Source of the DNA: a virus
Strand: one strand, 5' to 3'
IMG/VR virus record: IMGVR_UViG_3300014202_000736
Length of the DNA: 62,651 nt
Shown: in pieces, positions 415 through 62,651 of the stretch
How the letters are laid out: each line of letters begins with the position of its first letter
Numbering within the stretch: position 1 is the first letter of the stretch
Notes under the pieces: model-generated
What the model saw: the letters and a program-made list of their open reading frames with translations, nothing else
Told to the model about the DNA's origin: nothing
Databases searched by the model: none
Position numbers and translations under genes: made by a program

Positions 415-582
415 ATGCCCAAGTACAAGGCTGATATTCGCGCCGACTTTTCGGTGGAGTTCGAAGACAACGGCGAGGACTCCATTGTTGACCAGGCACA
501 CGACGCTGGCGAAGCCGTGATCGGCCACATTGACCAGTCCTTCGACATCTCCGTCGTCGGCATGCCAGAGGAGGTGAAGTGA
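415..582 (+). CDS. Hypothetical small acidic protein (55 aa)
   Basis: ATG at 415. The stop overlaps the GTG start of the next gene (GTGA). It falls below the ORF-track cutoff and was read manually. Confidence 0.4.
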   Translation: MPKYKADIRADFSVEFEDNGEDSIVDQAHDAGEAVIGHIDQSFDISVVGMPEEVK

Positions 583-1070
583 GTTCGGCCATCTTCAACC
601 GTGGCGGCACGCATCGGCACATCTTGGTTCGAGATATTCAGGACGGTGGGCCCGTGGTCGGGTTCTTCGGCGTCAACGCCAGCACCGCCGACGGCAAACG
701 AGAGGACCAAACCACCCGCAAGTGGAATGGCTTCAGCTATCGCAACGGGTTCAGCAAATACCTCGTCGCCAACCCGTTCGACTACATCGCCACAGACGTT
801 AACGACCTGGCGAAATGTCCGAAGCCATGCAGCAGCGTCAACCTGAGGTACATTCAACAGGTGCTCGACGAAGCTGAGATCTTGATCCCATGCTGGGGCA
901 ACCGAGGCAAGGTACCTCGTCATCTATGGCCAAAGCTTGACGAACTGAAGATGATGATCTTCGCCACGTTGAAGCCGGTTCTGATTTTCGGCCTGACGAA
1001 AACAGGCGACCCGAAGCATCCGTTGATGCTGCCCTATGACACCCCACTTGTCGAATGGAAACACCTATGA
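579..1070 (+). CDS. DUF1643-like protein
   Basis: The motifs GVNASTAD, IPCWGNRG and TGDPKHPLMLPY resemble the NPSxAD...WG...HPL pattern of DUF1643. The start and stop are both coupled to neighbouring genes. Confidence 0.6.
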   Translation: MSSAIFNRGGTHRHILVRDIQDGGPVVGFFGVNASTADGKREDQTTRKWNGFSYRNGFSKYLVANPFDYIATDVNDLAKCPKPCSSVNLRYIQQVLDEAEILIPCWGNRGKVPRHLWPKLDELKMMIFATLKPVLIFGLTKTGDPKHPLMLPYDTPLVEWKHL

Positions 1071-1738
1071 ACTACGAGATCGCGACACAATCAACGGTGG
1101 ACTATGTCGACAAACTCGGCACAGACATCACCGTCGTCAACGCAGCCAGGGTCAGCTTCGACAAACACAGTGACCTGTTCGGCGGCGGCGACGATCGGCT
1201 TCTGAGGTACTTGGCTGAGCACGACCACTGGAGCCCGTTCGCCCACGCTCAAGTGCAGGTGCGCATTACGGCGCCAATCTTCGTCGCAAGGCAGCTGGTC
1301 AAGCACCAGATCGGCCTGGTCTGGAACGAGGTCAGCCGCCGCTACGTTACGGACGAACCGACGTTCTTCTTGCCCAAAGTGTGGAGGGGCAAGCCTCGAG
1401 ACGGGGCTAAACAAGGAAGCTTCGGTGAGGTTAAAATGCATCCGGATCTGATGACCAGGATTACGGACTTGATGTACGACGCCTCAAATCTCTACACAGA
1501 TTTAATGGACTTTGGTGTCTGCGCTGAGCAGGCCAGAATGTTCCTCCTCCAAAATCTCATGACTAGTTGGTACTGGACTGGTTCACTTTATGCGTGCGCC
1601 AGAGTATGCAGGCTCAGACTGGATCCCCACGCTCAAGGTGAGGCCCGAGACGTGGCCATCGCCATGAACAAGATCTGCCTGGAACATTTCCCTCACTCGT
1701 GGGAGAAGCTGGTTCCAGACTGTCATCAATGGACCTGA
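1067..1738 (+). CDS. thyX: FAD-dependent thymidylate synthase ThyX-like
   Basis: AARVSFD, APIFVARQ, NEVSRRY and LRLDPHAQ match the ThyX core. The signature RHR reads KHQ here. The start has an ATGA overlap with the upstream stop. Confidence 0.85.
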   Translation: MNYEIATQSTVDYVDKLGTDITVVNAARVSFDKHSDLFGGGDDRLLRYLAEHDHWSPFAHAQVQVRITAPIFVARQLVKHQIGLVWNEVSRRYVTDEPTFFLPKVWRGKPRDGAKQGSFGEVKMHPDLMTRITDLMYDASNLYTDLMDFGVCAEQARMFLLQNLMTSWYWTGSLYACARVCRLRLDPHAQGEARDVAIAMNKICLEHFPHSWEKLVPDCHQWT

Positions 1739-3715: not shown

Positions 3716-3725
3716 TGTCGGTCTC

Positions 3726-53271: not shown

Positions 53272-54180
53272 ATGACAACCGAAATTCGTCCGTGCCAGCA
53301 GATTGGCGTCAAGCGCATTTGCTTCCTGGTGGACCTCGACAAGACCAGGGCCAAGATCCTGGACAACTTCGTCTGGGCCGTCGCCACCAAAGAGATCCCG
53401 ATCAAGGTCTGGAAGAAGGAGTGGAAGACGCTCCAGCTGCCTGAGGACAAGGTCGCGAAGATCCTCGACGGCCTAGCTGCCTACGCCATCTACGCTGGCA
53501 TGACGCCTGACGCAGGCGAGTACCTGCCGAACATGGTGCCGATGTCACAGCCGGCCCGGACCGTGGCCCTCAGCAAGGGCAAGGAGCTGCTCGAGCGCTA
53601 CAAGACCCAGGCCGAAATCGAAGAGGCGGCTGAAAAAGCCGGCAAGCCTCTGACCGGCGCCGCTCTGATGAGCGTCGTCAAGCGCGAGCTAGCCAAGGTC
53701 AGCGCCGAGGATGGGCTTCGGGGCCTGGACACACCTCCGGAGCAGCTCTCCGAACCAGGCACCGGCAACACGGCGACTGAGGACGGAGAGGTCACGCAGG
53801 ACAAGCCAGCTGGCCGAGTCGCTCGCCGAACCGAGACCAAGAAGGCGAAGCAGATTAAGACGCTCGCCGCCGAGGTCACGAAGGATCTGACCGAAGCTGA
53901 GCAGGCCGGCGAAAACCCGGCGAAGATCATGAAGAGCCGACCTCCAGTCGAACGGTCGAAGGGTTTTGACCCGGCCAAGCTCAAAGGCTCCGACGGCGAA
54001 TATAAGTCCGTCTCGGCCATGTTCAAGGGCCTCGTCCTCGAGAACGTCGGTAAGAAAAAGCCGTTGACCGACGACCAGATCTTCGAGAAGGTCAAGGCCA
54101 AGTTTGGCATCGACGAGTCAAAGCGCGGCTACGTCCAATGGAACCGCAATTGGCTGAAGAAGGAAGGAGTCATCGCATGA
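53272..54180 (+). CDS. Hypothetical protein (302 aa) with a charged central linker
   Basis: ORF preceded by gctgaaggagaatgacca. Confidence 0.5.
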   Translation: MTTEIRPCQQIGVKRICFLVDLDKTRAKILDNFVWAVATKEIPIKVWKKEWKTLQLPEDKVAKILDGLAAYAIYAGMTPDAGEYLPNMVPMSQPARTVALSKGKELLERYKTQAEIEEAAEKAGKPLTGAALMSVVKRELAKVSAEDGLRGLDTPPEQLSEPGTGNTATEDGEVTQDKPAGRVARRTETKKAKQIKTLAAEVTKDLTEAEQAGENPAKIMKSRPPVERSKGFDPAKLKGSDGEYKSVSAMFKGLVLENVGKKKPLTDDQIFEKVKAKFGIDESKRGYVQWNRNWLKKEGVIA

Positions 54181-54923
54181 GCAAGAGCATCATCGACCAA
54201 CAGGAGGTCGTTGTCGAGTCGGCCGATGGCAAGACCATCACTTATCGTTTCCAGCTCGAACGAGCAGACGACGTATTTACGATGTTGGTCTCAGCCGCCG
54301 ACTCCACTGGCAACTCTATTCGCCTTCGTGATGGTGACCACTACGTCGGCATGGTCCTGATGGCTCAGGCCAACATGATCGAGCAAGGGCTCCATATCAA
54401 GGAGCACGGGCCCGACGTGATGGAGGACATCGTCAAGTTCCATCAGAAGTTCAGCCTCGAATATCACGGCAAGCCGAGGATGCTCGAACCCGAGCTCTTC
54501 GACTTCCGCAGCCGCTTCCTCGAGGAGGAGCTGACCGAGTGGCGAGAGGAACAGGTCGGCCTGATCGAGGCGTTGACCTCGGACGACGGCAAGCCTGACC
54601 ATCGGCGCGTGGCCCTCGGTCTGCATCAACAGCTCGACGCGCTGGTCGACCTCGTCTACGTCGCCGTCGGCACGGCCTATCTCCAGTTCGGCCGCAAGAT
54701 TTTCAACGAGGCGTGGCGCAGGGTCCAGGCTGCCAACATGAGCAAGATCCGGGCCGAGAACGCCGGCCTGTCGAAGCGTGGCTCAGCGTTCGACGTTGTC
54801 AAGCCCGAAGGCTGGCAGGCGCCGGACCATCACGACCTCGTGAAGGACCACGCCCACATTCCGTTCCGGCAAAGCGGAGAGCTGAACCCAGGCCACGAAA
54901 AAGACACCCAGGTGATCGCATGA
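54177..54923 (+). CDS. MazG-like all-alpha NTP pyrophosphohydrolase with an extra N-terminal domain of about 85 aa
   Basis: The motifs are FHQKF...RFLEEELTEW...DALVDLVYVAVGTAY...EAWRRVQAANMSK. The start has an ATGA overlap. Confidence 0.7.
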   Translation: MSKSIIDQQEVVVESADGKTITYRFQLERADDVFTMLVSAADSTGNSIRLRDGDHYVGMVLMAQANMIEQGLHIKEHGPDVMEDIVKFHQKFSLEYHGKPRMLEPELFDFRSRFLEEELTEWREEQVGLIEALTSDDGKPDHRRVALGLHQQLDALVDLVYVAVGTAYLQFGRKIFNEAWRRVQAANMSKIRAENAGLSKRGSAFDVVKPEGWQAPDHHDLVKDHAHIPFRQSGELNPGHEKDTQVIA

Positions 54924-55093
54924 AGATCCAAATCGTATTGCCACTCTACAAAGAGTGCGTAGGCAGCTGGCGCTACCAGGCTGAGGACAAGGACGCCGTG
55001 ATCCAATCGGTCTACATTCGGAAGTCGGCCTTCAAGCAAGGCGAGCCTCCACCGAAGAGCATCCTTATCACGGTCAACGGGGTGGAGGCCTGA
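54920..55093 (+). CDS. Hypothetical protein (57 aa)
   Basis: Read manually. The start has an ATGA overlap. Confidence 0.4.
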   Translation: MKIQIVLPLYKECVGSWRYQAEDKDAVIQSVYIRKSAFKQGEPPPKSILITVNGVEA

Positions 55094-55094
55094 G

Positions 55095-56114
55095 ATGGCC
55101 AACCGACAAGTGGTCCTCAGCCCGTTCTACCCGATCTCGGACAAGCTCGACACCAGCCATCGAGCCGGCTGGGCCAGGTACTGGGCCAATGAGCTTAAGG
55201 CCGAGATCTTCACCACCGGTTCCATGGGCCAGATCGCCACCCTCAAAAAGGGCGACGAGATCCTGATGTACCACGGTATGGAGTTCAAAGGCCAGCTGAA
55301 CCTCCAGTCTGGCCTCACGGATGAGATCCTGGGCCGCGTCAAGCTCGTGCTGGATGCGAAGAAGCGGGGAGTGGTGTTCGGATCACTCGACGTGCCAGGG
55401 CCTCGTTACGGGCGGCTTCTGGCGGACCGTGGCATGGATCCTGACTCGGCTGAGGCGCTGGACAAGGTCGGCACGAACACGCCGTTCCTCGGGGCGCCGA
55501 ACAAGGGCAAGCTGGTGGTGATCGGTGACAGCCACGCCCTGAGCCTCTATCGGCCAGGTTCCACCATCAGCCGATCCGACGGCCTGACCCTCCACGGCGC
55601 ATTGAAGACTGGCCTCAGCCAGCACATGCAGAACTTCGTCTTTGAAGCCGACGCTGGCTTGGCCAAGGCCGACGTGCTGACGTTCTACTTCGGCAACATT
55701 GACATTCGCCACCATCTCGGACGTCAACCAGATCCGAAGGCGTCGATCAAAGAGCTGGTTGACGAGTACGGTCAACAGCTCGCCATGGTTGTCAAGGACT
55801 TCCGACCGAAGGTGCTCGAGGTAGTGATGCCGCTGCCAATCGAGGACGAGAGTCGCCCCATTCCGAAGTCTGGCTGGTACAAGGGCGCACCGTTCTTTGG
55901 CCCGTGGAGCGTGCGTCACCAGATGCGGCTCGAGCTGCGTGATCGGCTGAGACGGATGTGCAAAAAGTACGGGTTCGCGTCGTACGAGCATCCGAGACAC
56001 TTCGTCGGCCGAGATGGCAAGCTGCCGTTCGAGGTGATGGAGAAGCCTCGGTCGGTGCACGTCAGGCCGGCGGAGTATCGGCTGGTGCAGGAAGGCCAGG
56101 CGTGGAATGGCTGA
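55095..56114 (+). CDS. Two-domain protein of unknown function whose C-terminal half has SGNH-hydrolase-like blocks
   Basis: VVIGDSHA resembles GDS block I and FYFGNIDIRHH resembles GxND block III. The evidence is weak. Confidence 0.45.
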   Translation: MANRQVVLSPFYPISDKLDTSHRAGWARYWANELKAEIFTTGSMGQIATLKKGDEILMYHGMEFKGQLNLQSGLTDEILGRVKLVLDAKKRGVVFGSLDVPGPRYGRLLADRGMDPDSAEALDKVGTNTPFLGAPNKGKLVVIGDSHALSLYRPGSTISRSDGLTLHGALKTGLSQHMQNFVFEADAGLAKADVLTFYFGNIDIRHHLGRQPDPKASIKELVDEYGQQLAMVVKDFRPKVLEVVMPLPIEDESRPIPKSGWYKGAPFFGPWSVRHQMRLELRDRLRRMCKKYGFASYEHPRHFVGRDGKLPFEVMEKPRSVHVRPAEYRLVQEGQAWNG

Positions 56115-56340
56115 ATATCAAGATGAGCTGACTCCTCTGAACGACGTTCTCGAACCTCAGCACCAACTCCTACCGGTAACTCGAGGTCGAGAGTCAGAGT
56201 CCTGGGTCGACTCTGCAATAATTTCAGCTGCCATCAGCCTGAAGCGCATTGCCGACATGCTCGAGGCTGTCGTTGACCACAATCGAGACGAGCCGATGGG
56301 GCCGGCGATCCGCACTCAACGACCCGGGGACGAGCGGTGA
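56107..56340 (+). CDS. Hypothetical protein (77 aa)
   Basis: ORF overlapping the upstream stop. Confidence 0.4.
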   Translation: MAEYQDELTPLNDVLEPQHQLLPVTRGRESESWVDSAIISAAISLKRIADMLEAVVDHNRDEPMGPAIRTQRPGDER

Positions 56341-56627
56341 CGGGTGTGAACCGCAATCGCTATGGACGTGCCATTAGCCAACCCATCGGTCCCTGGCCCG
56401 GGTTCGAAGCCGAGGACGAAACTTGGGAGACGGTAGATCCCTCCCATCCTGAGTTACTTCCTCCTCCAGGTCAGTTGGTCGAAGTATTTTGGGTCGTTGC
56501 CAATCTTGAGTACAACACTCTTCGGATCTCGTACGGGAAGTGCTCCATGGTCGGAGACCGCAAGTGGCTGAACGAAGATGGCCAACAGGTGGTCTTCAAC
56601 CCTAAGTTTTGGAGGCCGATCCCATGA
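56337..56627 (+). CDS. Hypothetical protein (96 aa)
   Basis: GTG start overlapping the upstream stop. Confidence 0.45.
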   Translation: MTGVNRNRYGRAISQPIGPWPGFEAEDETWETVDPSHPELLPPPGQLVEVFWVVANLEYNTLRISYGKCSMVGDRKWLNEDGQQVVFNPKFWRPIP

Positions 56628-57811
56628 CGAGAACAGTGAAGCGAGGGTCGATCAAGCTCGAGGAGAACGTGACACCTCCGTCGGCTCTGGAACTCAAGAT
56701 CGGAAAGATCACGCTCGCCGTCAACGAGCCAATCGTTGCAGACCCCAAAGCCTTCGAAAAGAAGGTCAAGGCTGGCTTCAGAGCTTTTGCCATCGCCCAC
56801 GATCGTGGGCTCAGGCCAACGCCCTACTTCTTTGAGGCGATCGACTACGTGCGCAAAGCCAAGATCTTACAGGCTGCAAGCCTGGAGAACGGAGGTCTCG
56901 GCGCCGAGAAGGTGCCGAAGGTCGGAGACCCGTTGATGGAGACCATCCCGATCTACAACACAGTCCAACGTCGCTACGCCGGCTTCTCCAACGTGCTCGA
57001 GCAACTGTGGTACGGCAGCCGAGCTCCGAAGGTGCAAGCCAACAAGGCTCGAGGGTTCTATGACCCGAAACTGAAAGCGTGGAAAGGCATCTCTAAGATC
57101 TTACCTCGCGAGTGGCTCTATCTGTGCCTTGCCCATCGCATCACGGGGTCTGGAGCGTCGTTCGAGTGGGACCACGGCTGGCGCAATAATCGGATCTACG
57201 AGATTGCCTACTTAGACAAGATGAGTGAGATGTCCCATCGGTTGTCTACGTACGATGGGCCGATCTTCACTAGCATCGGCAACCAGATCCCACCATTTCC
57301 AAAGTGCGGAGGCAGAGAATATCTCGACTATCTTGCACCTCAGCTCGTGCTCAAGACATATAAGTGGCTGTCGTGGCGCGCCACCCAAAGCGGGCCTGCG
57401 CCCATTAAGCAAGTCGTAGATAAGGTGCTCGAGTTTCACACTGAGCTCGGCTGCAAGCAGTTCAAGTTCGTGCTGACGGCCTGGGTCATGGACATCGCCG
57501 AGTACATGCCTCACCTGGTCGACCCCAACTCCGACTGCTACCACGGCAAGAACGCCATCGAAGCGGTGGACATCTGCTTCTACAACACGACGATGACGCG
57601 CCAGCAGAAGCTCGATGCCGCCACCAGGCTCTTTGCCGACGTCAGCGGTACTCAGCCCATGGACGTAGAAGACGCCAGCCCTGGCTGTGACCTGGTCCGA
57701 TGGATTGAGAATTACGTGCCGAAGAAGGGGTTCGATCACGTGCACGAGAACGAGATTTTCAACGGCTCGAGCTTGACGTGGTCTCATGGACGTCAACCGC
57801 CGCCATTTTAG
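56624..57811 (+). CDS. Large orphan protein (395 aa), candidate DNA/nucleotide base-modifying enzyme (aGPT-Pplase-like is hypothesis only)
   Basis: Motif-like islands are LAHRITGSGASFEWDHGWRNN, GNQIPPFPKCGG and FVLTAWVMDIAEY. The assignment rests on genomic context only. Confidence 0.5.
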   Translation: MTRTVKRGSIKLEENVTPPSALELKIGKITLAVNEPIVADPKAFEKKVKAGFRAFAIAHDRGLRPTPYFFEAIDYVRKAKILQAASLENGGLGAEKVPKVGDPLMETIPIYNTVQRRYAGFSNVLEQLWYGSRAPKVQANKARGFYDPKLKAWKGISKILPREWLYLCLAHRITGSGASFEWDHGWRNNRIYEIAYLDKMSEMSHRLSTYDGPIFTSIGNQIPPFPKCGGREYLDYLAPQLVLKTYKWLSWRATQSGPAPIKQVVDKVLEFHTELGCKQFKFVLTAWVMDIAEYMPHLVDPNSDCYHGKNAIEAVDICFYNTTMTRQQKLDAATRLFADVSGTQPMDVEDASPGCDLVRWIENYVPKKGFDHVHENEIFNGSSLTWSHGRQPPPF

Positions 57812-57820
57812 CTGTGTACA
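57803..57820 (+). promoter_or_regulatory. Degenerate conserved box CCATTTTAGCTGTGTACA
   Basis: It spans the stop of the upstream gene and lies 48 nt upstream of ATG 57868. Confidence 0.35.
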
Positions 57821-57867
57821 GGCTCATGTTCGCATAGTAGCCAAGGATCTTGCTGAAGGGGATCAGA

Positions 57868-58059
57868 ATGAACCTGAACTTCAATGCCGCTGAGAATGAG
57901 CTTCTGCTCACGCAGACCGCCATGGTCCGAGCATCAGATAATCGGCTTGGCGCCGGCGTAGTGCTAAACCCGTCGGGCAAGACCCTTTGCTCGTGCGACG
58001 AGGACGAGCAGGCCCATCTGATCGCGAAGCTCTTCAACAATGGGCTCAAGATCCCATGA
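57868..58059 (+). CDS. Hypothetical protein (63 aa)
   Basis: ORF preceded by gctgaaggggatcaga. Confidence 0.45.
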   Translation: MNLNFNAAENELLLTQTAMVRASDNRLGAGVVLNPSGKTLCSCDEDEQAHLIAKLFNNGLKIP

Positions 58060-58322
58060 CCGAGCTTCCTGAGGCCGACAAGTACATGGAGGCGGTTTTC
58101 CTCCAGAAGATTAGAGCCAAGGCCAAACGTACGTTCGGCTGTGGGCTGAGCGTCACCGTTGACGAGGTCGAGGAGATCTTTTGGTCTCAAAACCCTGAGC
58201 TGCTTGAGTCGCTTGAGCCTCGAGGCCAACTCGATGAAGCGAAACAGATGTTTCGTGACCGGTTCCTTGAGAGTCTCACGATCAATGTAGAGGAAAACGG
58301 CATCAAGGTGGTCCGAGCATGA
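58056..58322 (+). CDS. Hypothetical protein (88 aa)
   Basis: ATGA overlap. Confidence 0.45.
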   Translation: MTELPEADKYMEAVFLQKIRAKAKRTFGCGLSVTVDEVEEIFWSQNPELLESLEPRGQLDEAKQMFRDRFLESLTINVEENGIKVVRA

Positions 58323-58558
58323 AAGATCCATTCGACCGCTTCACCGACTGGCTTCGTCGACAGACGGACAAGACGGTTGACGACCCACCTGTCCACGGCT
58401 GGTTGATCCAATACTTCTTCGGTTTGTTCGGCCTCTTCATCATGGTGACGGCGGAGCCTGAAGATCCTAGGTTCATGATTGGCATGATGTGCTTCGGCAC
58501 GTACTCCATCATCCGAACCATACGTGTGATCGAGAAGGAACGTCGAGATGGCGCATAA
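58319..58558 (+). CDS. Membrane protein with two TM helices (79 aa)
   Basis: The TM helices are WLIQYFFGLFGLFIMV and FMIGMMCFGTYSII. Confidence 0.5.
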   Translation: MKDPFDRFTDWLRRQTDKTVDDPPVHGWLIQYFFGLFGLFIMVTAEPEDPRFMIGMMCFGTYSIIRTIRVIEKERRDGA

Positions 58559-59513
58559 CAACCACACCACCGACTCGACCATCCGAGAGTTCGTCAAGGA
58601 CGGTGTGACGCCTGAGTCATTGGTCCGCATGGCTGAAGGCTGGGTCGACCCGTTCCCAGAGCCGGTGGTCGAAAAGGTTCGAACGACGAACACCGTGGCT
58701 GACCAGAACCGGAACGGAGTGATTGGAAAAACTGTGTTCGTCGTGCGTGACGACCTGCCTGAAATGGGCAGCAAGGGCAGGTTCGGCAGCCTGCTGGTGC
58801 AGCGGATCAAGGATGACACGATCGTCTACGTCGCACCACGCGTAGGCTGGGCCGCCATCAGTCTGGCTAAGCTGTGCAACATGTATGACAAGCGCCTGAT
58901 CCTCTTCGCGCCGGCGTGCAAGGAGCCGAGTGACCACCAACGAGTGGCCATGGAGCTCGGAGCTGACATGAGGTTCTACCGGGTGGCGGCGATGCCGAAC
59001 CTGCAGCGTGAGGCTGAGGCGTTCGCCAAAAAGCACGGCTACTTCTTTGCTCCCCTCGGGCTTCGTCACCCGCTGGTCACGGCGGCAATCGTAGCTACAG
59101 TCAAGAAGATCATGGCCAAGCGTCGAGTGCCGTTGACTGGCAAGGAACGGCGTCAGATGTGGTGTGCCATGTCCACCGGTGTGCTGAGCCGTGGGCTTCA
59201 GATTGCTTTGCCGAACTGGGACCATCACGGCGTCGCCGTGGCTCGCAACATTCACTCCGGTGAGCGTGGCCATGCCGAGATCCACAGTCACCCGTACGCA
59301 TTCACTCAGAATGAGATGCCGGCGCTTCGGCCTCCGTTCCCATCGGCGTCGAACTATGACGCCAAGGTGTGGCGCTACATCTGCGATGAAGGCGAAGACG
59401 GATGCTGGTTCTGGAACGTCGCGGGCGAGATCCTGCCGACGAAGCCGTTGCCACCGAGGTGGTCCAAGTCCGACGTGCCATACAACGATCGCTCAGCGTT
59501 CAGGAGGAAGTAG
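58548..59513 (+). CDS. PLP-dependent fold-type II enzyme (ACC-deaminase / D-cysteine-desulfhydrase-like)
   Basis: VFVVRDDLPEMGSKGRFGSLL resembles KRDDLxxxxGGNKxRKL, with a candidate PLP lysine. Size is 321 aa. Confidence 0.6.
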   Translation: MAHNNHTTDSTIREFVKDGVTPESLVRMAEGWVDPFPEPVVEKVRTTNTVADQNRNGVIGKTVFVVRDDLPEMGSKGRFGSLLVQRIKDDTIVYVAPRVGWAAISLAKLCNMYDKRLILFAPACKEPSDHQRVAMELGADMRFYRVAAMPNLQREAEAFAKKHGYFFAPLGLRHPLVTAAIVATVKKIMAKRRVPLTGKERRQMWCAMSTGVLSRGLQIALPNWDHHGVAVARNIHSGERGHAEIHSHPYAFTQNEMPALRPPFPSASNYDAKVWRYICDEGEDGCWFWNVAGEILPTKPLPPRWSKSDVPYNDRSAFRRK

Positions 59514-60445
59514 TGCTGCAACCATTGACCATCTTTGAAGGCCCTGATTGCTCAGGCAAATCGACCGCGGCAAATGAATTCTGGCAGCTCGCTCGAACGA
59601 GCCAGAAGCGGATCCACCACGGGCCGTATCCGGGCATCAAGAAGATGCTGCCTCGGCTGTACGTGGAGACAATGCTGCCGATGCTCGATGGTGGCGCTGG
59701 TCAAGTCTGGGATCGGGCCTGGTACTCTGAGCCGATTTACGGCGCCTCGTTCCGGAACGGCGAAGACCGGGTCGGCTCAGTTGCTTCACGCCACCTGGAA
59801 CGCTTCGCTCTTCGTCACGGTGCCGTCGTTGTGCTCTGTCTGCCGCCGTGGGACACAGTCCGTGAAAGTTGGCTCAAGCGCAAGGGCGAGGAGTACCTCG
59901 ACAAGGTCGAGCAGCTCGAGAAGGTCTACAACGACTACTCCGACCTTCGTCGGTGGTGCGGTCTGCCCGTGGTGCTGTACGACTACGAACGTCACTCGAT
60001 TGACCAGATGTCTGAGGCCGTCGAACGGGCCAGGCTCGGCATCTTCAAGGAACCGAAGATCCACGCCGGCGGCAACCCGAACGCCAAAGTCGTCTTGGTC
60101 GGCGACAGGTGCAGCGACCTCAAGGACGAAGACTGCAACTGGCGCCTGCCGTTTGCCAGCTTCTCTGGCGGCGGCTCGAGTTCGTGGTTGACCAGAAAGT
60201 TGATGGATCTCAAAGTTCGAGAAGACCAGCTTCTCTGGGTCAACGCTAGCGATCGCCTCGAGTGGCTCGACGAGCGCCACAATGAGCTTGTCATCGCACT
60301 CGGTCAAGAAGCGGCAAGGAAGCTTGTCCACCACGACATTCCTCATGTGGAGGTAGAGCACCCGCAATACTTCAAGCGTTTTCGTGAGGGCGACGAAGCC
60401 GCCGTCTACGAACTTTTTGAAATCTTGGAAGGATTGAACCCATGA
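59513..60445 (+). CDS. Fusion protein with an N-terminal thymidylate-kinase-like P-loop dNMP kinase and a C-terminal UDG-superfamily (family-4-like) domain
   Basis: Kinase: FEGPDCSGKST and VWDRAWYSEPIYG. UDG-like: KVVLVGDRCSDLKDEDCNWRLPFASFSGGGSSSWLTRKL and a terminal HPQYFKR. The GTG start has an aggagga SD. Confidence 0.7.
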   Translation: MLQPLTIFEGPDCSGKSTAANEFWQLARTSQKRIHHGPYPGIKKMLPRLYVETMLPMLDGGAGQVWDRAWYSEPIYGASFRNGEDRVGSVASRHLERFALRHGAVVVLCLPPWDTVRESWLKRKGEEYLDKVEQLEKVYNDYSDLRRWCGLPVVLYDYERHSIDQMSEAVERARLGIFKEPKIHAGGNPNAKVVLVGDRCSDLKDEDCNWRLPFASFSGGGSSSWLTRKLMDLKVREDQLLWVNASDRLEWLDERHNELVIALGQEAARKLVHHDIPHVEVEHPQYFKRFREGDEAAVYELFEILEGLNP

Positions 60446-61260
60446 GCGTAGCTCTAGACCTGAACATCGAATGGAAAAAGCTTCTCGGCGACGTTGTTCG
60501 TCGTGGCCAGCTCGTTCAGCCTCGAGGGTTGAACACGAAGGAGCTGCCGCAGATGACGATGATGTTCAGCATGCTCTATCCTGTCATCACACACGCTGAG
60601 CGGAAGCTCGGCTATCGGTTCATGGCGGCCGAAGCGTGGTGGATCCTGTCAGGCCGGAATGACGTGGCGTCCATCGCGCCCTACTCGAAAGCCATCAGCG
60701 AATTCAGCGACGACGGCCAGTACTTCTTCGGCAGCTACGGCGTGCCGTTCGTGGACCAACTCGCCTATGTGGTCAACACTCTTCGAAACGACATCGACAC
60801 GCGCCAGGCCACGATGACGTTCTGGCGTCAGTGCCCGCCGAAGACGAAAGACGTGCCGTGCACCATTGCGATCGACTTCAAGATCCGCAAGGGCAGGTTG
60901 AACGCCCACGTCTTCATGCGCTCAAGCGACGTCTGGCTTGGCGTGCCGTACGACTCGTTCAACTTCACGATGATGGCCTGCCGCGTGCTCGAGCTATACA
61001 ACGACGGCCTGGCCGACGATGACCGGGTTGGCCTGGGCACCTGCTTCTTGACGGCGGCGAGCAGCCACCTGTACGAGAAGAATTGGCTCGACGCTGAGCA
61101 GGTGCTGAAGTCGGCCGTGCCGTCACCAGCCACGGTGCCCGTTCCTAAAGCTCTCTACGGCAAAAATTCAGACACGCCGGTCGACCTGATCCCGTTCCTC
61201 GACACGCTGAAGGACGAGACAAGCGACGAGTCGCCGTATCGTTGGTGGGTGCCGAGATGA
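60442..61260 (+). CDS. Thymidylate-synthase-family pyrimidine nucleotide C5-(hydroxy)methylase, dCMP-hydroxymethylase-like
   Basis: The motifs are EAWWILSG, FGSYG, DIDTRQATMTFW, catalytic PC(140)T and MRSSDVWLGVPYD(171)SFNF. Asp sits where ThyA has Asn177. Confidence 0.8.
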   Translation: MSVALDLNIEWKKLLGDVVRRGQLVQPRGLNTKELPQMTMMFSMLYPVITHAERKLGYRFMAAEAWWILSGRNDVASIAPYSKAISEFSDDGQYFFGSYGVPFVDQLAYVVNTLRNDIDTRQATMTFWRQCPPKTKDVPCTIAIDFKIRKGRLNAHVFMRSSDVWLGVPYDSFNFTMMACRVLELYNDGLADDDRVGLGTCFLTAASSHLYEKNWLDAEQVLKSAVPSPATVPVPKALYGKNSDTPVDLIPFLDTLKDETSDESPYRWWVPR

Positions 61261-61406
61261 AGAACCTGGAGTCCATCGTGATGCGGCTCCTCGTCGGCGT
61301 CATGCTCCTGTTTTTGTGCGTGGCAGTCTTGATCCACAAGGTCGAGAAGCTCGACCAGAAGATCAACCATCTTGAGATGGTCGACGTGGTGATCCCTGAT
61401 GGTTAA
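61257..61406 (+). CDS. Small membrane protein (49 aa, one TM helix)
   Basis: Read manually as MKNLESIVMRLLVGVMLLFLCVAVLI.... The start has an ATGA overlap. Confidence 0.4.
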   Translation: MKNLESIVMRLLVGVMLLFLCVAVLIHKVEKLDQKINHLEMVDVVIPDG

Positions 61407-61554
61407 GATCCTGCTCACGCTCACCATTTTCATGGCCATCGTGTCTGGCGTCACGCTCGCGTTGGCTGAGGATCCGATCACCGCTTCGATGCCGCTCTTC
61501 CTGACTGGCTGGTTCGGCGTCTTTACCTTTTGGGTCGGAAGGAGCCGCAAATGA
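61399..61554 (+). CDS. Small membrane protein (51 aa, two TM helices)
   Basis: Read manually as MVKILLTLTIFMAIVSGVTLALA...LFLTGWFGVFTFWV. The stop overlaps the next ATG. Confidence 0.4.
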   Translation: MVKILLTLTIFMAIVSGVTLALAEDPITASMPLFLTGWFGVFTFWVGRSRK

Positions 61555-62129
61555 GCTTTCGAAGCTTGGCGAAGCAACGCACTCTTAGGATCAGTCGTCA
61601 CGAGTGGGCGATCAGCCTGGCGGTCATGACCTCCAAGCGTGCCACGTGTGTGCGCCGCCAAGTCGGCTGCATCCTGGTTGACAAGGACTGGTACGTCCTT
61701 GCTACCGGGTTCAACGGTGTGCCATCAGGCTTACCCCACTGCAACGACCCAGGGAACATCAGCAAGCTTCGAGCCGTGCCATCTGACGACGGGAACGAGT
61801 TGACCAACTTCTCGTTTCCCAACGCCTGTCCAGGAGCCTTCGCCGAGAGCGGCACGAACCTGGACGGATGCCACGCCATCCACGCTGAGCAGAATGCTCT
61901 GCTTCGGTGCCGGGACCCTCGTGAGATCTTCGCATGCTATGCCACGGCCAGCCCGTGCATGACGTGCGTCAAGCTGCTGATGAACACCGGCTGCAGGCAG
62001 ATCTACTTCCTCGAACCTTATGCCCATGACGAGCCAGCCCGAGAGCTGTGGGAGTCGCTTCGGGGCAAAGGTGCGTGGATCCACCTGACGCCTGAGCTCG
62101 AGGCCCAGCTGAGGGAGCACGGTCAATGA
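61551..62129 (+). CDS. dCMP deaminase
   Basis: The zinc motifs are CHAIHAEQNAL and SPCMTCVKLL. The start follows a ggaaggag SD. Confidence 0.85.
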   Translation: MSFRSLAKQRTLRISRHEWAISLAVMTSKRATCVRRQVGCILVDKDWYVLATGFNGVPSGLPHCNDPGNISKLRAVPSDDGNELTNFSFPNACPGAFAESGTNLDGCHAIHAEQNALLRCRDPREIFACYATASPCMTCVKLLMNTGCRQIYFLEPYAHDEPARELWESLRGKGAWIHLTPELEAQLREHGQ

Positions 62130-62371: not shown

Positions 62372-62651
62372 ACATCTGTCAACGGCACTGGGAAGACCTT
62401 CGAAAAAAGGTCGATGAACGAGGCATGTCGCATCTTGTTTCTTCCAATGGTGAGGAGGCGATGGCGAGAACCCTTGCCCAGCTCAACAACGAAGACACAT
62501 CAGACGATTGGGACCCGTTGATGGCGGCGTTCTTCGCCATCGGCCAGTGGGCATTGAACCGAATGGGTCTGGCCGTGCTGCAGCCAGGATTTTGTCCGCT
62601 GTGCCAGGTGCAGCGGAGCTTCGAGAACGTCAAGCTGTTGCCTGAGTTCGA
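62368..62651 (+). CDS. Hypothetical protein, 5' part. It runs off the window end and continues at 72-171 after the repeat is collapsed.
   Basis: ATG 62368 has an ATGA overlap with the upstream stop. There is no stop before the window end. Confidence 0.5.
   Translation, partial: MNICQRHWEDLRKKVDERGMSHLVSSNGEEAMARTLAQLNNEDTSDDWDPLMAAFFAIGQWALNRMGLAVLQPGFCPLCQVQRSFENVKLLPEF
62581..62651. repeat. Terminal direct repeat, copy 2 (identical to 1-71)
   Basis: Read directly from the sequence. Confidence 0.95.

What the first reader, a model, noticed from the sequence alone, without database searches (positions are those of the whole stretch)
54177..62129. Pyrimidine-pool rewiring plus candidate DNA hypermodification cluster
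One co-directional block continues across the circular junction to ThyX at 1067-1738. It encodes a MazG-like NTP pyrophosphatase, an SGNH-like two-domain protein, a 395-aa orphan, a PLP-dependent fold-II enzyme, a dNMP-kinase/UDG-fold fusion, a TS-family hydroxymethylase-like enzyme, dCMP deaminase, DUF1643 and ThyX. The core set (HMase-like, dNMP kinase, all-alpha NTPase, dCMP deaminase, thymidylate synthase) mirrors the T4 logic of gp42, gp1, gp56, cd and td for replacing a canonical pyrimidine. The extra PLP enzyme and orphans recall the post-replicative thymidine hypermodification pathways (5-hmdU DNA kinase, aGPT-Pplase, PLP enzymes). The combination here does not fit either described scheme: there is no glucosyltransferase I can recognise, no separate DNA kinase, and a cytosine-type specificity residue. 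The virion DNA may therefore carry an undescribed modified pyrimidine.
Basis: partly seen in the sequence, partly recalled or inferred. Interest (0 to 1): 0.85.

Follow-up and report, generated by a model that had tools for sequence, protein, structure and literature searches.

The report
Predicted new hypermodified cytosine pathway
This phage carries a T4-style gene set that should replace cytosine with 5-hydroxymethylcytosine, plus a widespread, uncharacterised three-gene module related to the enzymes that decorate thymine in other phages, so its DNA probably carries a cytosine modification nobody has described.

Summary

- **Thymidylate synthase (TS) homolog.** It has the dCMP-hydroxymethylase signature, in E. 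coli ThyA numbering: Cys146, Asp143, Asp169, Asp177.
- **The 395-aa "orphan".** It is a divergent member of the aGPT-Pplase / amino-acid:DNA-transferase superfamily. Its predicted structure matches that family at E 8e-18. A bridging protein links it by sequence at 97% probability. The catalytic Glu-x3-Cys motif is conserved.
- **PLP enzyme.** It is a distant homolog of the phage M6 gp52 nucleobase decarboxylase, and the PLP lysine aligns.
- **SGNH-like protein.** It has a true SGNH esterase/acyltransferase fold with invariant Ser, Gly, Asn and His.
- **Conserved triad.** SGNH-like, transferase-like and PLP genes sit side by side in 84 metagenomic loci (18 lineages, unrelated phage backbones). 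The first two are sometimes fused.
- **Link to cytosine.** All 70 complete neighbouring TS homologs carry Asp177, and no 5-hmdU DNA kinase is present.
- **Cultured relatives.** AXL3 has the same nucleotide module but no triad, and its DNA is cut only at A/T-only sites. T4-like Aeromonas phages have gene 42, no glucosyltransferase, and an SGNH-helical fusion.

Best reading: pre-replicative 5hmC, then post-replicative amino-acid-type hypermodification of cytosine. The chemistry is untested.

The parts
54177..54923 (+). MazG/PRA-PH-like all-alpha NTP pyrophosphatase (the ORF can also start at 54138). Inferred role: dCTP (and perhaps dUTP) pyrophosphatase that supplies dCMP and keeps dC out of the DNA.
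   Evidence: Pfam PRA-PH E 2.9e-5, 24.8 bits against a cut-off of 21.3. phrog_671 'nucleotide pyrophosphohydrolase' E 1.9e-21. Syntenic with the kinase and TS homolog in PW916, AXL3 and L006. No pairwise similarity to T4 gp56, so the substrate is inferred only.
55095..56114 (+). Two-domain protein, first member of the triad: an unassigned alpha/beta N-domain (about residues 1-130) plus an SGNH esterase/acyltransferase-fold C-domain.
   Evidence: AF2 model pLDDT 93.5. Foldseek against PDB matches sialate O-acetylesterases, PAF acetylhydrolase and PatB O-acetyltransferase: E 2.6e-5 for the top hit and 5e-4 for PatB, probability 1.0, TM about 0.6. Invariant G144-D145-S146-H147, G168, G200-N201, S320-V321-H322 in 41 homologs. 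Present in 82 of 84 loci beside the transferase-like gene. Fused to it in P0122, P0126, P0146, P0176, P0187 and L085.
56107..56627 (+). Two small ORFs (77 and 96 aa) between the SGNH-like and transferase-like genes. Function unknown.
   Evidence: No family hits. No homologs in the 84 related loci. In most lineages the two flanking genes abut directly.
56624..57811 (+). The 395-aa 'orphan', second member of the triad: a divergent all-alpha member of the aGPT-Pplase / amino-acid:DNA-transferase superfamily. Candidate catalytic Glu349 and Cys355; HhH-like loop HRITGSGASF.
   Evidence: AF2 pLDDT 88. Foldseek against BFVD: 'Amino acid:DNA transferase domain' protein E 8e-18, TM 0.71; Pplase1 and 5-hmdU DNA kinase helical-domain proteins also match. 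P0255 links the family to Pfam PF18723: Pfam E 1.8e-20, and hhalign of A1 against P0255 gives probability 97%, E 9e-11. Invariant E349, D350, C355, D356, R359. No Pfam hit of its own and no PDB match.
57850..58558 (+). Small ORFs (57850-58059 or 57987-58322, and 58319-58558) between the transferase-like and PLP genes. Function unknown.
   Evidence: No significant family hits. Not conserved in related loci.
58548..59513 (+). PLP-dependent fold-type II enzyme, third member of the triad. Homolog of the M6 gp52 / ViI gp226 class of nucleobase-amino-acid decarboxylases. PLP lysine is K76.
   Evidence: PALP E 3.7e-6. phrog_7093 E 6e-35. BLASTP against M6 gp52 E 8e-4. In alignment A5, K76 aligns with M6 K36, and Y270-D271-x-K273 and W289-N290 are invariant. 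Present in 81 of 84 loci.
59513..60445 (+). TMPK/dNK-like P-loop kinase fused to a family-4-UDG-like domain. Most likely the 5-hm-dCMP kinase; role of the UDG-like domain unknown.
   Evidence: Profile against PDB sequences: SPbeta YorR E 2e-15, thymidylate kinases about 1e-5, family-4 UDG TM0511 E 1.2e-5. Public gene call is 310 aa. Abuts the TS homolog here and in PW916, AXL3 and MW202621, which lack the triad. This kinase family occurs in 11 of 18 lineages, usually touching the TS gene. No similarity to the M6 gp54 5-HMUDK and no PF18748 hit.
60442..61260 (+). Thymidylate-synthase-family enzyme with the dCMP hydroxymethylase signature (Cys146, Asp143, Asp169, Asp177 in E. coli numbering).
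   Evidence: Thymidylat_synt E 3.5e-18. Best PDB match is the CMP hydroxymethylase MilA, E 2.8e-15. Alignment A4 with E. coli ThyA, T4 gp42 and M6 gp58. Residue criteria come from PMC13326640 and PMC8670742. Below all NCBIfam TS cut-offs.
61242..61554 (+). Two small ORFs (54 and 51 aa) whose translations look hydrophobic by eye, between the hydroxymethylase and the deaminase.
   Evidence: ORF list only. No homologs in related loci. Not analysed further.
61530..62129 (+). dCMP deaminase. Inferred role: supplies dUMP for ThyX.
   Evidence: dCMP_cyt_deam_1 E 9.5e-16. phrog_174 E 7.8e-34. Present in 13 of 18 lineages near the triad.
579..1070 (+). DUF1643 protein, overlapping the start of thyX. 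Role unknown.
   Evidence: DUF1643 E 3e-25. A homolog is present in MW202621. Not found in the triad loci, so probably not part of the module.
1055..1738 (+). ThyX, the flavin-dependent thymidylate synthase. Makes canonical dTMP, which implies thymine is not the replaced base.
   Evidence: Thy1 E 6e-39. NCBIfam thyX 107.5 bits against a cut-off of 87.9. ThyX also lies near the triad in L008, L009, L010, L013, L028 and L065, and AXL3 encodes one.
62581..62651 (.). Terminal 71 nt identical to window positions 1-71, marking circular closure of the assembly.

Best explanation
The cluster is a two-stage pathway for cytosine hypermodification.

**Stage 1, before replication (T4 logic).**
- The MazG-like pyrophosphatase turns dCTP into dCMP. 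This step is inferred.
- The TS homolog hydroxymethylates dCMP to 5-hm-dCMP. This rests on four diagnostic active-site residues.
- The adjoining TMPK-like kinase makes the diphosphate, and host NDP kinase makes 5-hm-dCTP. This step is inferred.
- dCMP deaminase and ThyX keep up the supply of ordinary dTTP.
- The phage DNA polymerase therefore builds DNA with 5hmC in place of C and normal T.

**Stage 2, on the DNA.** A conserved three-gene module rewrites the hydroxymethyl group.
- The aGPT-Pplase-superfamily enzyme flips out the base. Its conserved cysteine attacks C6, the substituent on the C5-methylene leaves, and an amino acid (or another amine or hydroxyl nucleophile) adds. This is the mechanism shown for M6 gp51 and PaMx11 gp46 on 5-hmdU.
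- The PLP enzyme then decarboxylates the appended amino acid, as M6 gp52 and ViI gp226 do, leaving an amine-bearing side chain.
- The SGNH enzyme fills the slot that a P-loop 5-hmdU DNA kinase fills in thymidine pathways. My preferred guess is that it esterifies the hydroxymethyl group, for example by O-acetylation, to create a leaving group without ATP.

**What is shown and what is inferred.** Shown by computation: the folds, motifs, homologies, gene linkage and fusions. Inferred: every substrate, the order of steps and the final product.

**Sub-confidences.** C is replaced by a 5-substituted C, about 0.8. The triad acts on that base in DNA, about 0.65. SGNH acts as the activating acyltransferase, about 0.35. 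The product is a ViI-like 5-(2-aminoethoxy)methyl-cytosine, about 0.15.
For: **TS homolog.**
- KDVPC gives Asp143 and Cys146, RSSD gives Asp169, and LGVPYD gives Asp177. This is the same pattern as T4 gp42.
- M6 dUMP hydroxymethylase has Asn177.
- The residue criteria come from PMC13326640 and PMC8670742.

**Transferase-like protein.**
- Foldseek against BFVD matches an AADT-domain protein at E 8e-18, TM 0.71.
- The bridging protein P0255 hits PF18723 at E 1.8e-20 and the family profile at 97% probability, E 9e-11. The alignment includes the HhH-like loop and the Glu-x3-Cys motif.
- M6 gp51 has EVETVLCKW. Mutating that Cys or the neighbouring Glu abolishes activity.

**PLP enzyme.** K76 aligns with M6 gp52 K36, and the C-terminal motifs are shared.

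**SGNH-like protein.** Fold match at probability 1.0, with invariant Ser, Gly, Asn and His.

**Gene linkage.**
- In 84 loci (18 lineages), SGNH is present in 82 and PLP in 81, always contiguous with the transferase-like gene.
- SGNH-transferase fusions exist.
- TS homologs lie within 10 kb in 72 loci, and 70 of 70 complete ones carry D143/C146/D169/D177.
- No M6-type kinase, gp51 or gp55 was found by BLASTP.
- The module sits in unrelated backbones: PolA, PolIII-alpha and T7-like RNAP phages.

**ThyX** is encoded here and in several triad lineages.

**Experimental anchors.**
- AXL3 has the same pre-replicative module, with a DNA polymerase 48% identical. Its DNA resists 35 of 37 restriction enzymes and is cut only at AATT and TTAA.
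- Aeromonas phages 44RR, 31 and 25 have genes 42 and 56 but no glucosyltransferase.
- Phage 31 gp42 has D143/D169/D177.
- These same phages carry a 795-aa fusion of the SGNH-like protein with an aGPT-Pplase-like domain.
Against: - No chemistry has been measured for this phage or for any phage carrying the full triad. The transferase-like protein has no tblastn match in 50,697 deposited phage genomes.
- The transferase-like family fails every Pfam aGPT-Pplase/ADDT model. It shows no direct profile similarity to M6 gp51 or gp55 and no Foldseek match to any solved structure. PaMx11 gp46 crystal structures were determined, so they should be among those searched.
- It links at least as well to clade 1 (HMUDK_hel) as to clade 2. 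The clade 1 member M6 gp55 was dispensable in vitro, so transferase activity is not assured.
- No leaving-group-forming kinase was found, and the acyl-activation idea has no direct support. Weak hints only: a PTA_PTB gene next to the triad in L010 and a deacetylase-family gene near it in L006.
- The SGNH block-V Asp is absent.
- The Asp143 rule for hydroxymethylation versus methylation is only a correlation, and I did not check the XP12 methylase.
- Many of the 70 TS sequences are near-duplicates. Fifteen lineages is the honest count.
- The PALP and GDSL Pfam scores are below their gathering thresholds.
Confidence: 0.6

Rival explanations
1. Same end result, but the kinase/UDG-like fusion is the activating enzyme. 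The UDG-like domain flips 5hmC out of DNA and the P-loop domain phosphorylates the hydroxymethyl group, as a functional analogue of 5-HMUDK plus its helical domain. The transferase-like enzyme then displaces phosphate. The SGNH enzyme is a later tailoring or deprotecting esterase.
For: - M6 gp54, a true DNA kinase, is itself TMPK/dNK-like: besides PF18748 it gives weak Thymidylate_kin, dNK and AAA_18 hits. Family-level annotation therefore cannot separate nucleotide kinases from DNA kinases.
- Known 5-HMUDKs are fused to, or sit beside, a DNA-base-binding helical domain. Here the kinase is fused to a base-flipping fold.
- In L010 the UDG-like and kinase genes are adjacent but separate.
Against: - The fusion sits next to the TS homolog in AXL3, PW916 and MW202621, which have no triad.
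- 7 of 18 triad lineages show no such kinase within 10 kb, and only 6 have the UDG-like domain.
- The kinase gene almost always overlaps the TS gene, not the triad.
- A phage that replaces dC needs an hm-dCMP kinase anyway.
- No PF18748 hit.
Confidence: 0.12
2. The modified base is thymine, as in known systems. 5-hm-dCMP is deaminated by the phage dCMP deaminase to 5-hm-dUMP, 5hmU enters the DNA, and the triad is a divergent thymidine-hypermodification module.
For: - All characterised aGPT-Pplase/AADT and gp52-type PLP enzymes act on 5-hmdU derivatives.
- A dCMP deaminase accompanies the triad in 13 of 18 lineages.
- From my own recollection, not checked here: T-even dCMP deaminases accept 5-substituted dCMP.
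Against: - 70 of 70 TS homologs have Asp177 and none has Asn177.
- ThyX, a dedicated dTMP synthase, is encoded here and in several triad lineages.
- Thymidine-hypermodifying phages instead deplete dTTP.
- No 5-HMUDK is present.
- In the relative AXL3, A/T-only sites are cut while all G/C-containing sites resist.
Confidence: 0.08
3. Only the pre-replicative part concerns DNA, which carries plain 5hmC (or 5mC). The SGNH, helical and PLP triad acts on something else, such as a nucleotide, RNA, a cell-envelope component or a small metabolite.
For: - No member of the triad has a biochemically characterised close homolog.
- SGNH enzymes typically act on sugars, lipids or peptidoglycan.
- Fold-II PLP enzymes are mostly amino-acid metabolism enzymes.
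- AXL3-like phages manage without the triad.
Against: - The helical protein belongs to a superfamily known only from DNA-base modification, and it keeps the HhH-like loop and the catalytic Cys/Glu.
- The PLP enzyme's nearest characterised relative is a DNA-nucleobase decarboxylase. Its other phage homologs are embedded in, or annotated as, DNA methyltransferases.
- The triad is embedded in nucleotide-metabolism operons and shows strict co-occurrence with Asp177 TS homologs across unrelated backbones.
Confidence: 0.15

Closest known systems
Phage T4 5-hydroxymethylcytosine pathway (gp56 dCTPase, gp42 dCMP hydroxymethylase, gp1 dNMP kinase, cd dCMP deaminase, td thymidylate synthase, then alpha/beta-glucosyltransferases)
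   Same: - Same set of pre-replicative functions.
- The TS homolog shares the gp42 signature Asp143/Cys146/Asp169/Asp177.
- A separate dTMP synthase and a dCMP deaminase are retained.
   Different: - The parts are not orthologous. The pyrophosphatase shows no similarity to gp56.
- The kinase is TMPK/YorR-like with a UDG-like domain; I recall T4 gp1 belonging to a different kinase family, but did not compare them here.
- The thymidylate synthase is ThyX, not ThyA.
- No glycosyltransferase was found. The post-replicative step uses the triad instead.
Thymidine hypermodification in Salmonella phage ViI and Pseudomonas phages M6 and PaMx11 (5-HMUDK, then aGPT-Pplase2/AADT, then PLP decarboxylase, radical SAM or FAD enzymes); PMC5889632, PMC8989533, PMC11472151
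   Same: - A helical aGPT-Pplase-superfamily enzyme with the Glu-x3-Cys motif.
- A gp52/gp226-type fold-II PLP enzyme.
- A TS-family hydroxymethylase and a dCMP deaminase in the same operon.
- Fusions between the 'activating' enzyme and the helical enzyme occur in both systems.
   Different: - The hydroxymethylase is cytosine-type (Asp177) in 70 of 70 cases, against Asn177 in M6.
- There is no P-loop 5-hmdU DNA kinase (PF18748). An SGNH-fold enzyme is the obligate partner.
- The helical enzyme matches none of the Pfam models.
- ThyX is kept rather than dTTP being depleted.
5-hydroxymethylcytosine carbamoyltransferase and 5-carbamoyloxymethylcytosine (MetaGPA study, PMC8670742)
   Same: A metagenome-derived, non-glycosyl derivatisation of 5hmC that is linked to Asp177 TS homologs.
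   Different: That system uses a single carbamoyltransferase. No such domain is present here, and the enzymes here predict a C-N or C-O substitution plus decarboxylation.
Stenotrophomonas phage AXL3 and Pseudoxanthomonas phage PW916 (closest cultured relatives)
   Same: - The same NTP-PPase, kinase/UDG, TS(Asp177), dCMP deaminase block plus ThyX.
- TS homolog 52-53% identical and DNA polymerase 48% identical.
- AXL3 DNA is resistant at all G/C-containing restriction sites tested.
   Different: They lack the SGNH, transferase-like and PLP triad, and a methyltransferase gene sits next to the block. Their modification has not been chemically identified.
T4-like Aeromonas phages 44RR2.8t, 31 and 25 (Biquartavirus and relatives)
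   Same: - They encode gene 42 (Asp143/169/177 in phage 31) and gene 56 but no glucosyltransferase.
- They encode a full-length homolog of the SGNH-like protein (33% identity) fused to a C-terminal aGPT-Pplase-like domain: ORF233c, 795 aa.
   Different: - No homolog of the PLP enzyme at tblastn E 1e-3 or better.
- The helical domain is very divergent: PF18723 only at E 0.0036, and no hit to profile A1.
- A Na+/solute symporter gene lies next door.

Membership tests
Thymidylate synthase family, dCMP hydroxymethylase subclass (T4 gp42 type) | TS fold with the catalytic Cys146 | tested here: met
   Pfam Thymidylat_synt E 3.5e-18. The Cys in KDVPC aligns with E. coli C146.
Thymidylate synthase family, dCMP hydroxymethylase subclass (T4 gp42 type) | Asp in place of Asn177 (selects cytosine over uracil) | tested here: met
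   LGVPYD aligns with LGLPFN. The same holds in 70 of 70 TS homologs near the triad. Criterion.
Thymidylate synthase family, dCMP hydroxymethylase subclass (T4 gp42 type) | Acidic residue in place of Leu143 (correlates with a hydroxymethyl rather than a methyl product) | tested here: met
   Asp143 here, as in T4 gp42, MilA and M6 gp58. This is a correlation, not proof. The XP12 dCMP methylase was not compared.
Thymidylate synthase family, dCMP hydroxymethylase subclass (T4 gp42 type) | Product is 5-hm-dCMP | not testable with these tools
   Needs an in vivo or in vitro assay such as the one described in PMC13326640.
5-hydroxy-dCMP synthase (RB69 gp48 type) | Asn in place of Asp169 | tested here: not met
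   Asp169 is retained (RSSD) here and in all 70 homologs. Criterion.
Canonical thymidylate synthase (ThyA) | Asn177, Leu143, and a score above the curated family cut-offs | tested here: not met
   Asp177 and Asp143. NCBIfam best score 55 bits against cut-offs of 108-427.
aGPT-Pplase / amino-acid:DNA transferase superfamily (Pfam PF18724 ADDT, PF18723 HMUDK_hel) | Match to the curated Pfam models | tested here: not met
   No hit at E up to 10 for the window protein, or at E up to 1 for 41 family members.
aGPT-Pplase / amino-acid:DNA transferase superfamily (Pfam PF18724 ADDT, PF18723 HMUDK_hel) | All-alpha, DNA-glycosylase-like helical fold shared with family members | tested here: met
   Foldseek against BFVD: an AADT-domain protein at E 8e-18, TM 0.71, 28% identity. 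Pplase1 and the 5-hmdU DNA kinase helical domains of SP10, PhiW-14 and phiRSL1 match at probability 0.95-1.0. No match to any solved structure.
aGPT-Pplase / amino-acid:DNA transferase superfamily (Pfam PF18724 ADDT, PF18723 HMUDK_hel) | Sequence homology, directly or through intermediates | tested here: met
   P0255 hits PF18723 (E 1.8e-20) and the family profile (HMMER E 6e-8; hhalign probability 97%, E 9e-11). Direct hhalign against M6 gp51 and gp55 was not significant.
aGPT-Pplase / amino-acid:DNA transferase superfamily (Pfam PF18724 ADDT, PF18723 HMUDK_hel) | Conserved catalytic Cys with a nearby Glu near the C-terminus | tested here: met
   E349 and C355 are invariant in 41 sequences, with family consensus VED-x-x-C-D. 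M6 gp51 has EVETVLC. The motif aligns with P0255. Essentiality in M6 and ViI is reported.
aGPT-Pplase / amino-acid:DNA transferase superfamily (Pfam PF18724 ADDT, PF18723 HMUDK_hel) | Genomic association with a 5-hmdU DNA kinase and a dUMP hydroxymethylase | tested here: not met
   No PF18748 or M6 gp54-like kinase in the window or in 84 loci. All associated hydroxymethylases are Asp177 type.
aGPT-Pplase / amino-acid:DNA transferase superfamily (Pfam PF18724 ADDT, PF18723 HMUDK_hel) | Group transfer to a C5-methylene of a pyrimidine in DNA | not testable with these tools
   Requires biochemical reconstitution.
Phage PLP-dependent nucleobase decarboxylases (M6 gp52, ViI gp226; fold type II) | Fold-type II PLP domain with the Schiff-base lysine | tested here: met
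   PALP E 3.7e-6, though 26.9 bits is below the 35-bit cut-off. K76 is invariant and aligns with M6 gp52 K36 (K36).
Phage PLP-dependent nucleobase decarboxylases (M6 gp52, ViI gp226; fold type II) | Homology to the characterised enzymes | tested here: inconclusive
   BLASTP against M6 gp52 gives E 8e-4 at 21% identity over 229 columns. Shared invariant YD-K and WN motifs. ViI gp226 was not compared. No tblastn hit to M6 or ViI at E 1e-3 or better.
SGNH/GDSL hydrolase-acyltransferase superfamily | SGNH fold | tested here: met
   Foldseek against PDB: 48 hits at E 1e-3 or better, almost all SGNH esterases or acetyltransferases, at probability 1.0 and target-normalised TM about 0.6. Pfam Lipase_GDSL scores 21.6 bits, below the 23.6-bit cut-off.
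SGNH/GDSL hydrolase-acyltransferase superfamily | Block I Ser, block II Gly, block III Asn, block V His (the residues that name the family) | tested here: met
   GDS146H, G168, GN201, and SVH322 are invariant in 41 homologs. The block-V Asp (DxxH) is not conserved.
5-hmdU DNA kinase (Pfam PF18748 HMUDK_HMUD1) | Match to the family model or to M6 gp54 | tested here: not met
   The window kinase has no PF18748 hit at E up to 10 and no similarity to M6 gp54. M6 gp54 itself hits PF18748 at E 7.7e-18.
Thymidylate-kinase-like dNMP kinases | P-loop GxDGxGKS/T and a DR motif, with similarity to TMPK/dNK structures | tested here: met
   Invariant G10, D12, G15, K16, T18, D67, R68. YorR E 2e-15 and thymidylate kinases about 1e-5. 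Substrate not testable here.
Family-4 uracil-DNA glycosylase | UDG fold with motif A GE(A/G)PG and motif B HPS (motif definitions are from my own recollection, not checked here) | tested here: inconclusive
   A profile match to TM0511 and type-4 UDGs at E 1e-5 to 1e-3 supports the fold. Motif B is kept as HPQ (H283, P284). Motif A is VGD-x, without the Glu. Catalytic competence is doubtful.

The most novel reading that the evidence does not exclude
The SGNH, aGPT-Pplase-like and PLP triad is a previously unrecognised, globally distributed pathway. It would make the first amino-acid- or amine-type hypermodified cytosine, a cytosine counterpart of 5-NeOmdU or 5-NedU. The hydroxymethyl group would be activated by an SGNH acyl-transfer step, without ATP, instead of by a DNA kinase. 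Related chemistry would operate in cultured T4-like Aeromonas phages (44RR, 31, 25), whose post-hydroxymethylation modification was noted as unknown in 2010 (PMC2993671) and for which I found no later report.
Probability: 0.4. Interest if true: 0.9.

Novelty: new variant of a known kind. Interest (0 to 1): 0.8.

Why it matters
Every characterised aGPT-Pplase/AADT pathway modifies thymine. The known cytosine hypermodifications are glycosylations, arabinosylated 5-hydroxycytosine and one carbamoylation.

A cytosine-directed amino-acid transferase pathway would add a new chemical class of natural DNA base. Such a base should interfere with restriction enzymes, CRISPR nucleases, DNA glycosylase defences and sequencing chemistries. 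It would also add a new enzyme trio able to derivatise 5hmC, the epigenetic base that many mapping technologies target.

An SGNH enzyme acting on DNA would itself be unprecedented, as far as I could find.

The module is common: about 400 proteins at 90% clustering, 168 clusters at 50%, in marine, freshwater and engineered-system viromes. This gap therefore affects how a sizeable fraction of environmental phage DNA behaves in library preparation and in host defence.

The work also points to cultured phages where the idea can be tested at once. It gives a concrete hypothesis for the unexplained restriction resistance of AXL3-like phages and for the missing modification step in Aeromonas phages 44RR, 31 and 25.

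Tried and rejected
**Searches that found nothing**
- Megablast of the whole region against 50,697 phage genomes: no match.
- tblastn of the 395-aa protein against the same set: no match.
- Pfam at E up to 10, PHROGs and NCBIfam for the 395-aa protein: nothing.
- Pfam on 41 family members: only chance hits.
- Sequence or profile searches of PDB sequences: only sub-threshold chance matches for the 395-aa family (best E 0.021, NaMN adenylyltransferase) and the SGNH-like family (best E 0.28), and none for the PLP enzyme.
- Foldseek of the 395-aa model against PDB: no hit better than E 0.4. It was the viral predicted-structure library that gave the answer.
- hhalign of the family profile against M6 gp51, M6 gp55 and Aeromonas ORF233c: not significant.
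- Kinase against the M6 gp54 5-HMUDK: no similarity.
- MazG-like protein against T4 gp56: no similarity.
- DUF1643 protein against PDB sequences: nothing.
- Other early-region ORFs of the window: no glycosyltransferase, methyltransferase or further modification enzyme.
- Neighbours of the triad in other lineages: only replication, integration or transcription genes, so no fourth conserved partner.
- GTDB genomes: four hits, all in MAG contigs that are likely phage, so no cultured lysogen.

**Literature**
- Searches for a cytosine analogue of thymidine hypermodification or for an SGNH role in DNA modification found nothing.
- The paper by Aravind and co-workers that first proposed the aGPT-Pplases (reference 23 of PMC8989533) is not held, so I could not check whether this clade was noted there.

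**Ideas considered and rejected**
- The TS homolog as a 5-hydroxy-dCMP synthase: Asp169 is retained.
- The TS homolog as a true thymidylate synthase: Asp177, sub-threshold scores, and ThyX is present.

Full report
**1. The observation**

The window is 62,651 bp at 58% G+C. Its last 71 nt repeat its first 71 nt, so the + strand gene block from about 33 kb runs through the end into the first 2 kb.

- a PRA-PH/MazG-like pyrophosphatase (54177-54923);
- a 339-aa protein with a weak GDSL hit (55095-56114);
- a 395-aa protein with no family hit (56624-57811);
- a PALP-type PLP enzyme (58548-59513);
- a P-loop kinase with a C-terminal extension;
- a TS-family protein (60442-61260);
- a dCMP deaminase (61530-62129);
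- DUF1643 (579-1070);
- ThyX (1055-1738).

Public gene calls start the kinase at 59513, giving 310 aa. A profile of 33 homologs assigns its N-domain to the TMPK/dNK-like kinases: SPbeta YorR at E 2e-15 and thymidylate kinases at about 1e-5. It assigns the C-domain to family-4 UDGs at E 1e-5.

**2. The TS homolog is a dCMP hydroxymethylase by every available residue test**

Its best solved relative is the CMP hydroxymethylase MilA.

Recent work lists the diagnostic positions in E. coli ThyA numbering (PMC13326640; PMC8670742):
- Cys146 is catalytic.
- Asn177 changed to Asp switches the substrate from dUMP to dCMP.
- Leu143 changed to Asp or Glu correlates with hydroxymethyl rather than methyl products.
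- Asp169 changed to Asn marks the 5-hydroxy-dCMP synthases.

Aligned with E. coli ThyA, T4 gp42 and the M6 dUMP hydroxymethylase gp58, the window protein has Asp143, Cys146, Asp169 and Asp177. That is the same as T4 gp42. M6 gp58 has Asn177.

It scores far below all NCBIfam thymidylate-synthase cut-offs, while ThyX passes its own. A phage that keeps ThyX and a dCMP deaminase wants ordinary dTTP, as T4 does with td and cd.

**3. The "orphan" is an aGPT-Pplase-superfamily enzyme**

It has 419 homologs at 90% clustering and 168 representatives at 50%. None has a name or a Pfam domain.

An AlphaFold model built on 41 sequences is confident (pLDDT 88, all-alpha). It matches nothing in the PDB. In the viral predicted-structure library it matches:
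- an 'Amino acid:DNA transferase domain-containing protein' at E 8e-18, TM 0.71, 28% identity;
- then Pplase1 proteins;
- then the '5-hmdU DNA kinase helical domain' proteins of SP10, PhiW-14 and phiRSL1.

Sequence evidence agrees through an intermediate. P0255 is hit by the family profile (E 6e-8). It carries Pfam PF18723 (E 1.8e-20). It aligns to the family at 97% probability over 185 columns. That alignment includes the glycine-rich HRITGSGAS loop and the C-terminal Glu-x3-Cys motif.

The same motif (EVETVLC) is in M6 gp51. There the Cys and Glu are essential, and the Cys is proposed to attack C6 of the pyrimidine. In PaMx11 gp46 the corresponding Cys247 rotates to contact the flipped-out target nucleoside. 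Glu349 and Cys355 are invariant in the family.

Direct comparisons with M6 gp51 and gp55 and with the Pfam models fail. So this is a new, divergent clade, not a member of the curated families.

**4. The PLP enzyme and the SGNH protein**

The PLP enzyme is weakly but specifically similar to M6 gp52, the decarboxylase that finishes 5-NedU (E 8e-4). In a family alignment its invariant Lys76 falls on M6 Lys36, the proposed Schiff-base lysine. Two C-terminal motifs (YD-K and WN) are shared.

The 339-aa protein gives a very confident model (pLDDT 93.5). Its C-domain matches SGNH O-acetylesterases, PAF acetylhydrolase and the peptidoglycan O-acetyltransferase PatB (probability 1.0). Ser146, Gly168, Asn201 and His322 are invariant. 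Its N-domain remains unassigned.

**5. A conserved triad tied to cytosine-type hydroxymethylases**

Four context look-ups and an IMG/VR scan gave 84 loci in 18 lineages at 70% identity.
- The SGNH-like gene is present in 82 loci and the PLP gene in 81. Both are always contiguous with the transferase-like gene.
- The SGNH-like and transferase-like proteins are fused in at least seven independent proteins.
- A TS-family gene lies within 10 kb in 72 loci (15 lineages). All 70 complete copies have Asp143/Cys146/Asp169/Asp177.
- No locus has an M6-type 5-hmdU DNA kinase, gp51, gp53 or gp55.
- No fourth gene is conserved. The backbones range from PolA siphoviruses to T7-like RNAP/integrase phages, PolIII-alpha phages and contigs over 100 kb.
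- The TMPK-like kinase occurs in 11 lineages, nearly always overlapping the TS gene. The UDG-like domain occurs in 6.
- The same kinase/UDG fusion sits next to the TS homolog in AXL3, PW916 and MW202621, which lack the triad.

This pattern makes the kinase most likely the hm-dCMP kinase. It leaves the SGNH enzyme in the position that a DNA kinase holds in thymidine pathways.

**6. Experimental anchors in cultured relatives**

AXL3 has a DNA polymerase 48% identical to the window's and a TS homolog 52% identical with Asp143/169/177. It encodes the same pyrophosphatase, kinase/UDG, TS and deaminase block plus ThyX. Its DNA resisted 35 of 37 restriction enzymes and was cut only by TasI (AATT) and Tru1I (TTAA). 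That fits complete replacement of C with unmodified T.

Full-length homologs of the SGNH-like protein occur in T4-like Aeromonas phages 44RR2.8t, 31 and 25, and in a few others. In phage 31 it is the N-terminal half of the 795-aa ORF233c. The C-terminal half gives a weak PF18723 hit and contains HhH-like and Glu-x2-Cys features.

These are exactly the phages singled out in 2010 as having genes 42 and 56 but no glucosyltransferase, with any further modification unknown. Phage 31 gp42 has the T4-type signature, not the 5-hydroxycytosine type.

**7. Mechanism and its rivals**

The best-supported model is:
- a T4-style supply of 5-hm-dCTP;
- incorporation of 5hmC into DNA;
- Cys-mediated substitution at the C5-methylene by the transferase-like enzyme;
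- PLP-dependent decarboxylation of the appended amino acid.

The SGNH partner probably provides an ester leaving group, or else a tailoring step. The absence of a radical SAM isomerase makes a ViI-like O-linked serine route more natural than an M6-like glycine route. That is analogy only.

Rivals:
- The kinase/UDG fusion is the DNA kinase. Its distribution argues against this.
- The route goes to thymine through deamination of hm-dCMP. ThyX, Asp177 and the AXL3 digests argue against this.
- The triad has a non-DNA function. Its superfamily, motifs and strict linkage argue against this.

Nothing here measures chemistry. The transferase-like family links at least as well to the enigmatic clade 1 as to the catalytic clade 2, and the clade 1 member M6 gp55 was dispensable in vitro.

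**8. Novelty**

I found no description of an aGPT-Pplase-type pathway on cytosine, or of an SGNH enzyme in DNA modification. No deposited phage genome carries the transferase-like gene. Only four MAG contigs among 185,579 species genomes carry it.

I classify it as a new variant of a known kind: phage pyrimidine hypermodification with a new target base, a new enzyme clade and a new partner enzyme. Interest is high because the module is widespread and immediately testable.

Noticed in passing
window 1-71 and 62581-62651: The last 71 nt are an exact copy of the first 71 nt. This is the signature of a circularly closed assembly, so the window is a complete or circularly permuted phage genome of about 62.58 kb.
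   Followed up: yes
L003 (Erythrobacter phage ZS04) 2326-4764; L004 (Microcystis phage Mae-JY30) 5962-6672: The closest cultured-phage homologs of the PLP enzyme are not stand-alone. In Erythrobacter phages ZS04 and R6L the PALP domain sits inside an 812-aa protein annotated as a DNA methyltransferase (N6_N4_Mtase plus PALP, with an SPPY-like motif downstream). In Mae-JY30 it follows two ParB/sulfiredoxin genes. This is a different, also uncharacterised, DNA-linked use of this PLP family.
   Followed up: partly
L093 (Aeromonas phage 31) 5405-9385: ORF233c (795 aa) is the SGNH-like two-domain protein fused to a divergent aGPT-Pplase-like C-terminal domain. It lies directly after ORF234c, a phage-encoded sodium:solute symporter (Pfam SSF, E 7e-53), which could import a substrate for the modification. 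Homologs occur in 38 Aeromonas phage records, 2 Stenotrophomonas phage records (IME13) and 3 Tenacibaculum phage records.
   Followed up: partly
L010 8985-10521 and 14814-18035; L006 20979-21161: Lineage-specific genes sit beside the triad. L010 has a phosphate acetyl/butyryl-transferase (PTA_PTB) and an NAD-dependent epimerase immediately after the PLP gene, then glycosyltransferases, PIG-L deacetylase and methyltransferase genes further on. L006 has a histone-deacetylase-family gene after the dCMP deaminase. This hints at acetyl chemistry and at further tailoring, possibly sugars, in some lineages.
   Followed up: no
window 53272-54180: A 302-aa protein whose translation looks Lys/Glu-rich by eye, between the SNF2 helicase and the pyrophosphatase. 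Its C-terminal 55 residues or so are conserved in PW916, MW202621, L006 and L012-L017 at the same position. No family assignment.
   Followed up: partly
window 579-1070: The DUF1643 gene overlaps the thyX start. A homolog exists in MW202621 but in none of the 84 triad loci, so it is probably not part of the modification module. I recall, without checking, that Pfam groups DUF1643 with the UDG superfamily; if so, the phage would have two UDG-like proteins.
   Followed up: partly
P0127 (494 aa), P0248 (560 aa): Some transferase-like proteins carry N-terminal extensions of 100-390 aa. The P0127 extension, whose sequence I read, does not resemble the SGNH-like protein by eye. The P0248 sequence was not retrieved or compared.
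   Followed up: no
L092 (AXL3) 3361-4185; L002 (PW916) 934-1758: AXL3 and PW916 have a methyltransferase gene directly beside the pyrophosphatase, kinase and TS block. The window has the 302-aa unknown protein near that position instead. It may be an alternative tailoring step in those phages.
   Followed up: no
window 61242-61554: Two overlapping small ORFs (54 and 51 aa) whose translations look very hydrophobic by eye lie between the hydroxymethylase and the dCMP deaminase. Possible membrane peptides inside a nucleotide-metabolism operon.
   Followed up: no
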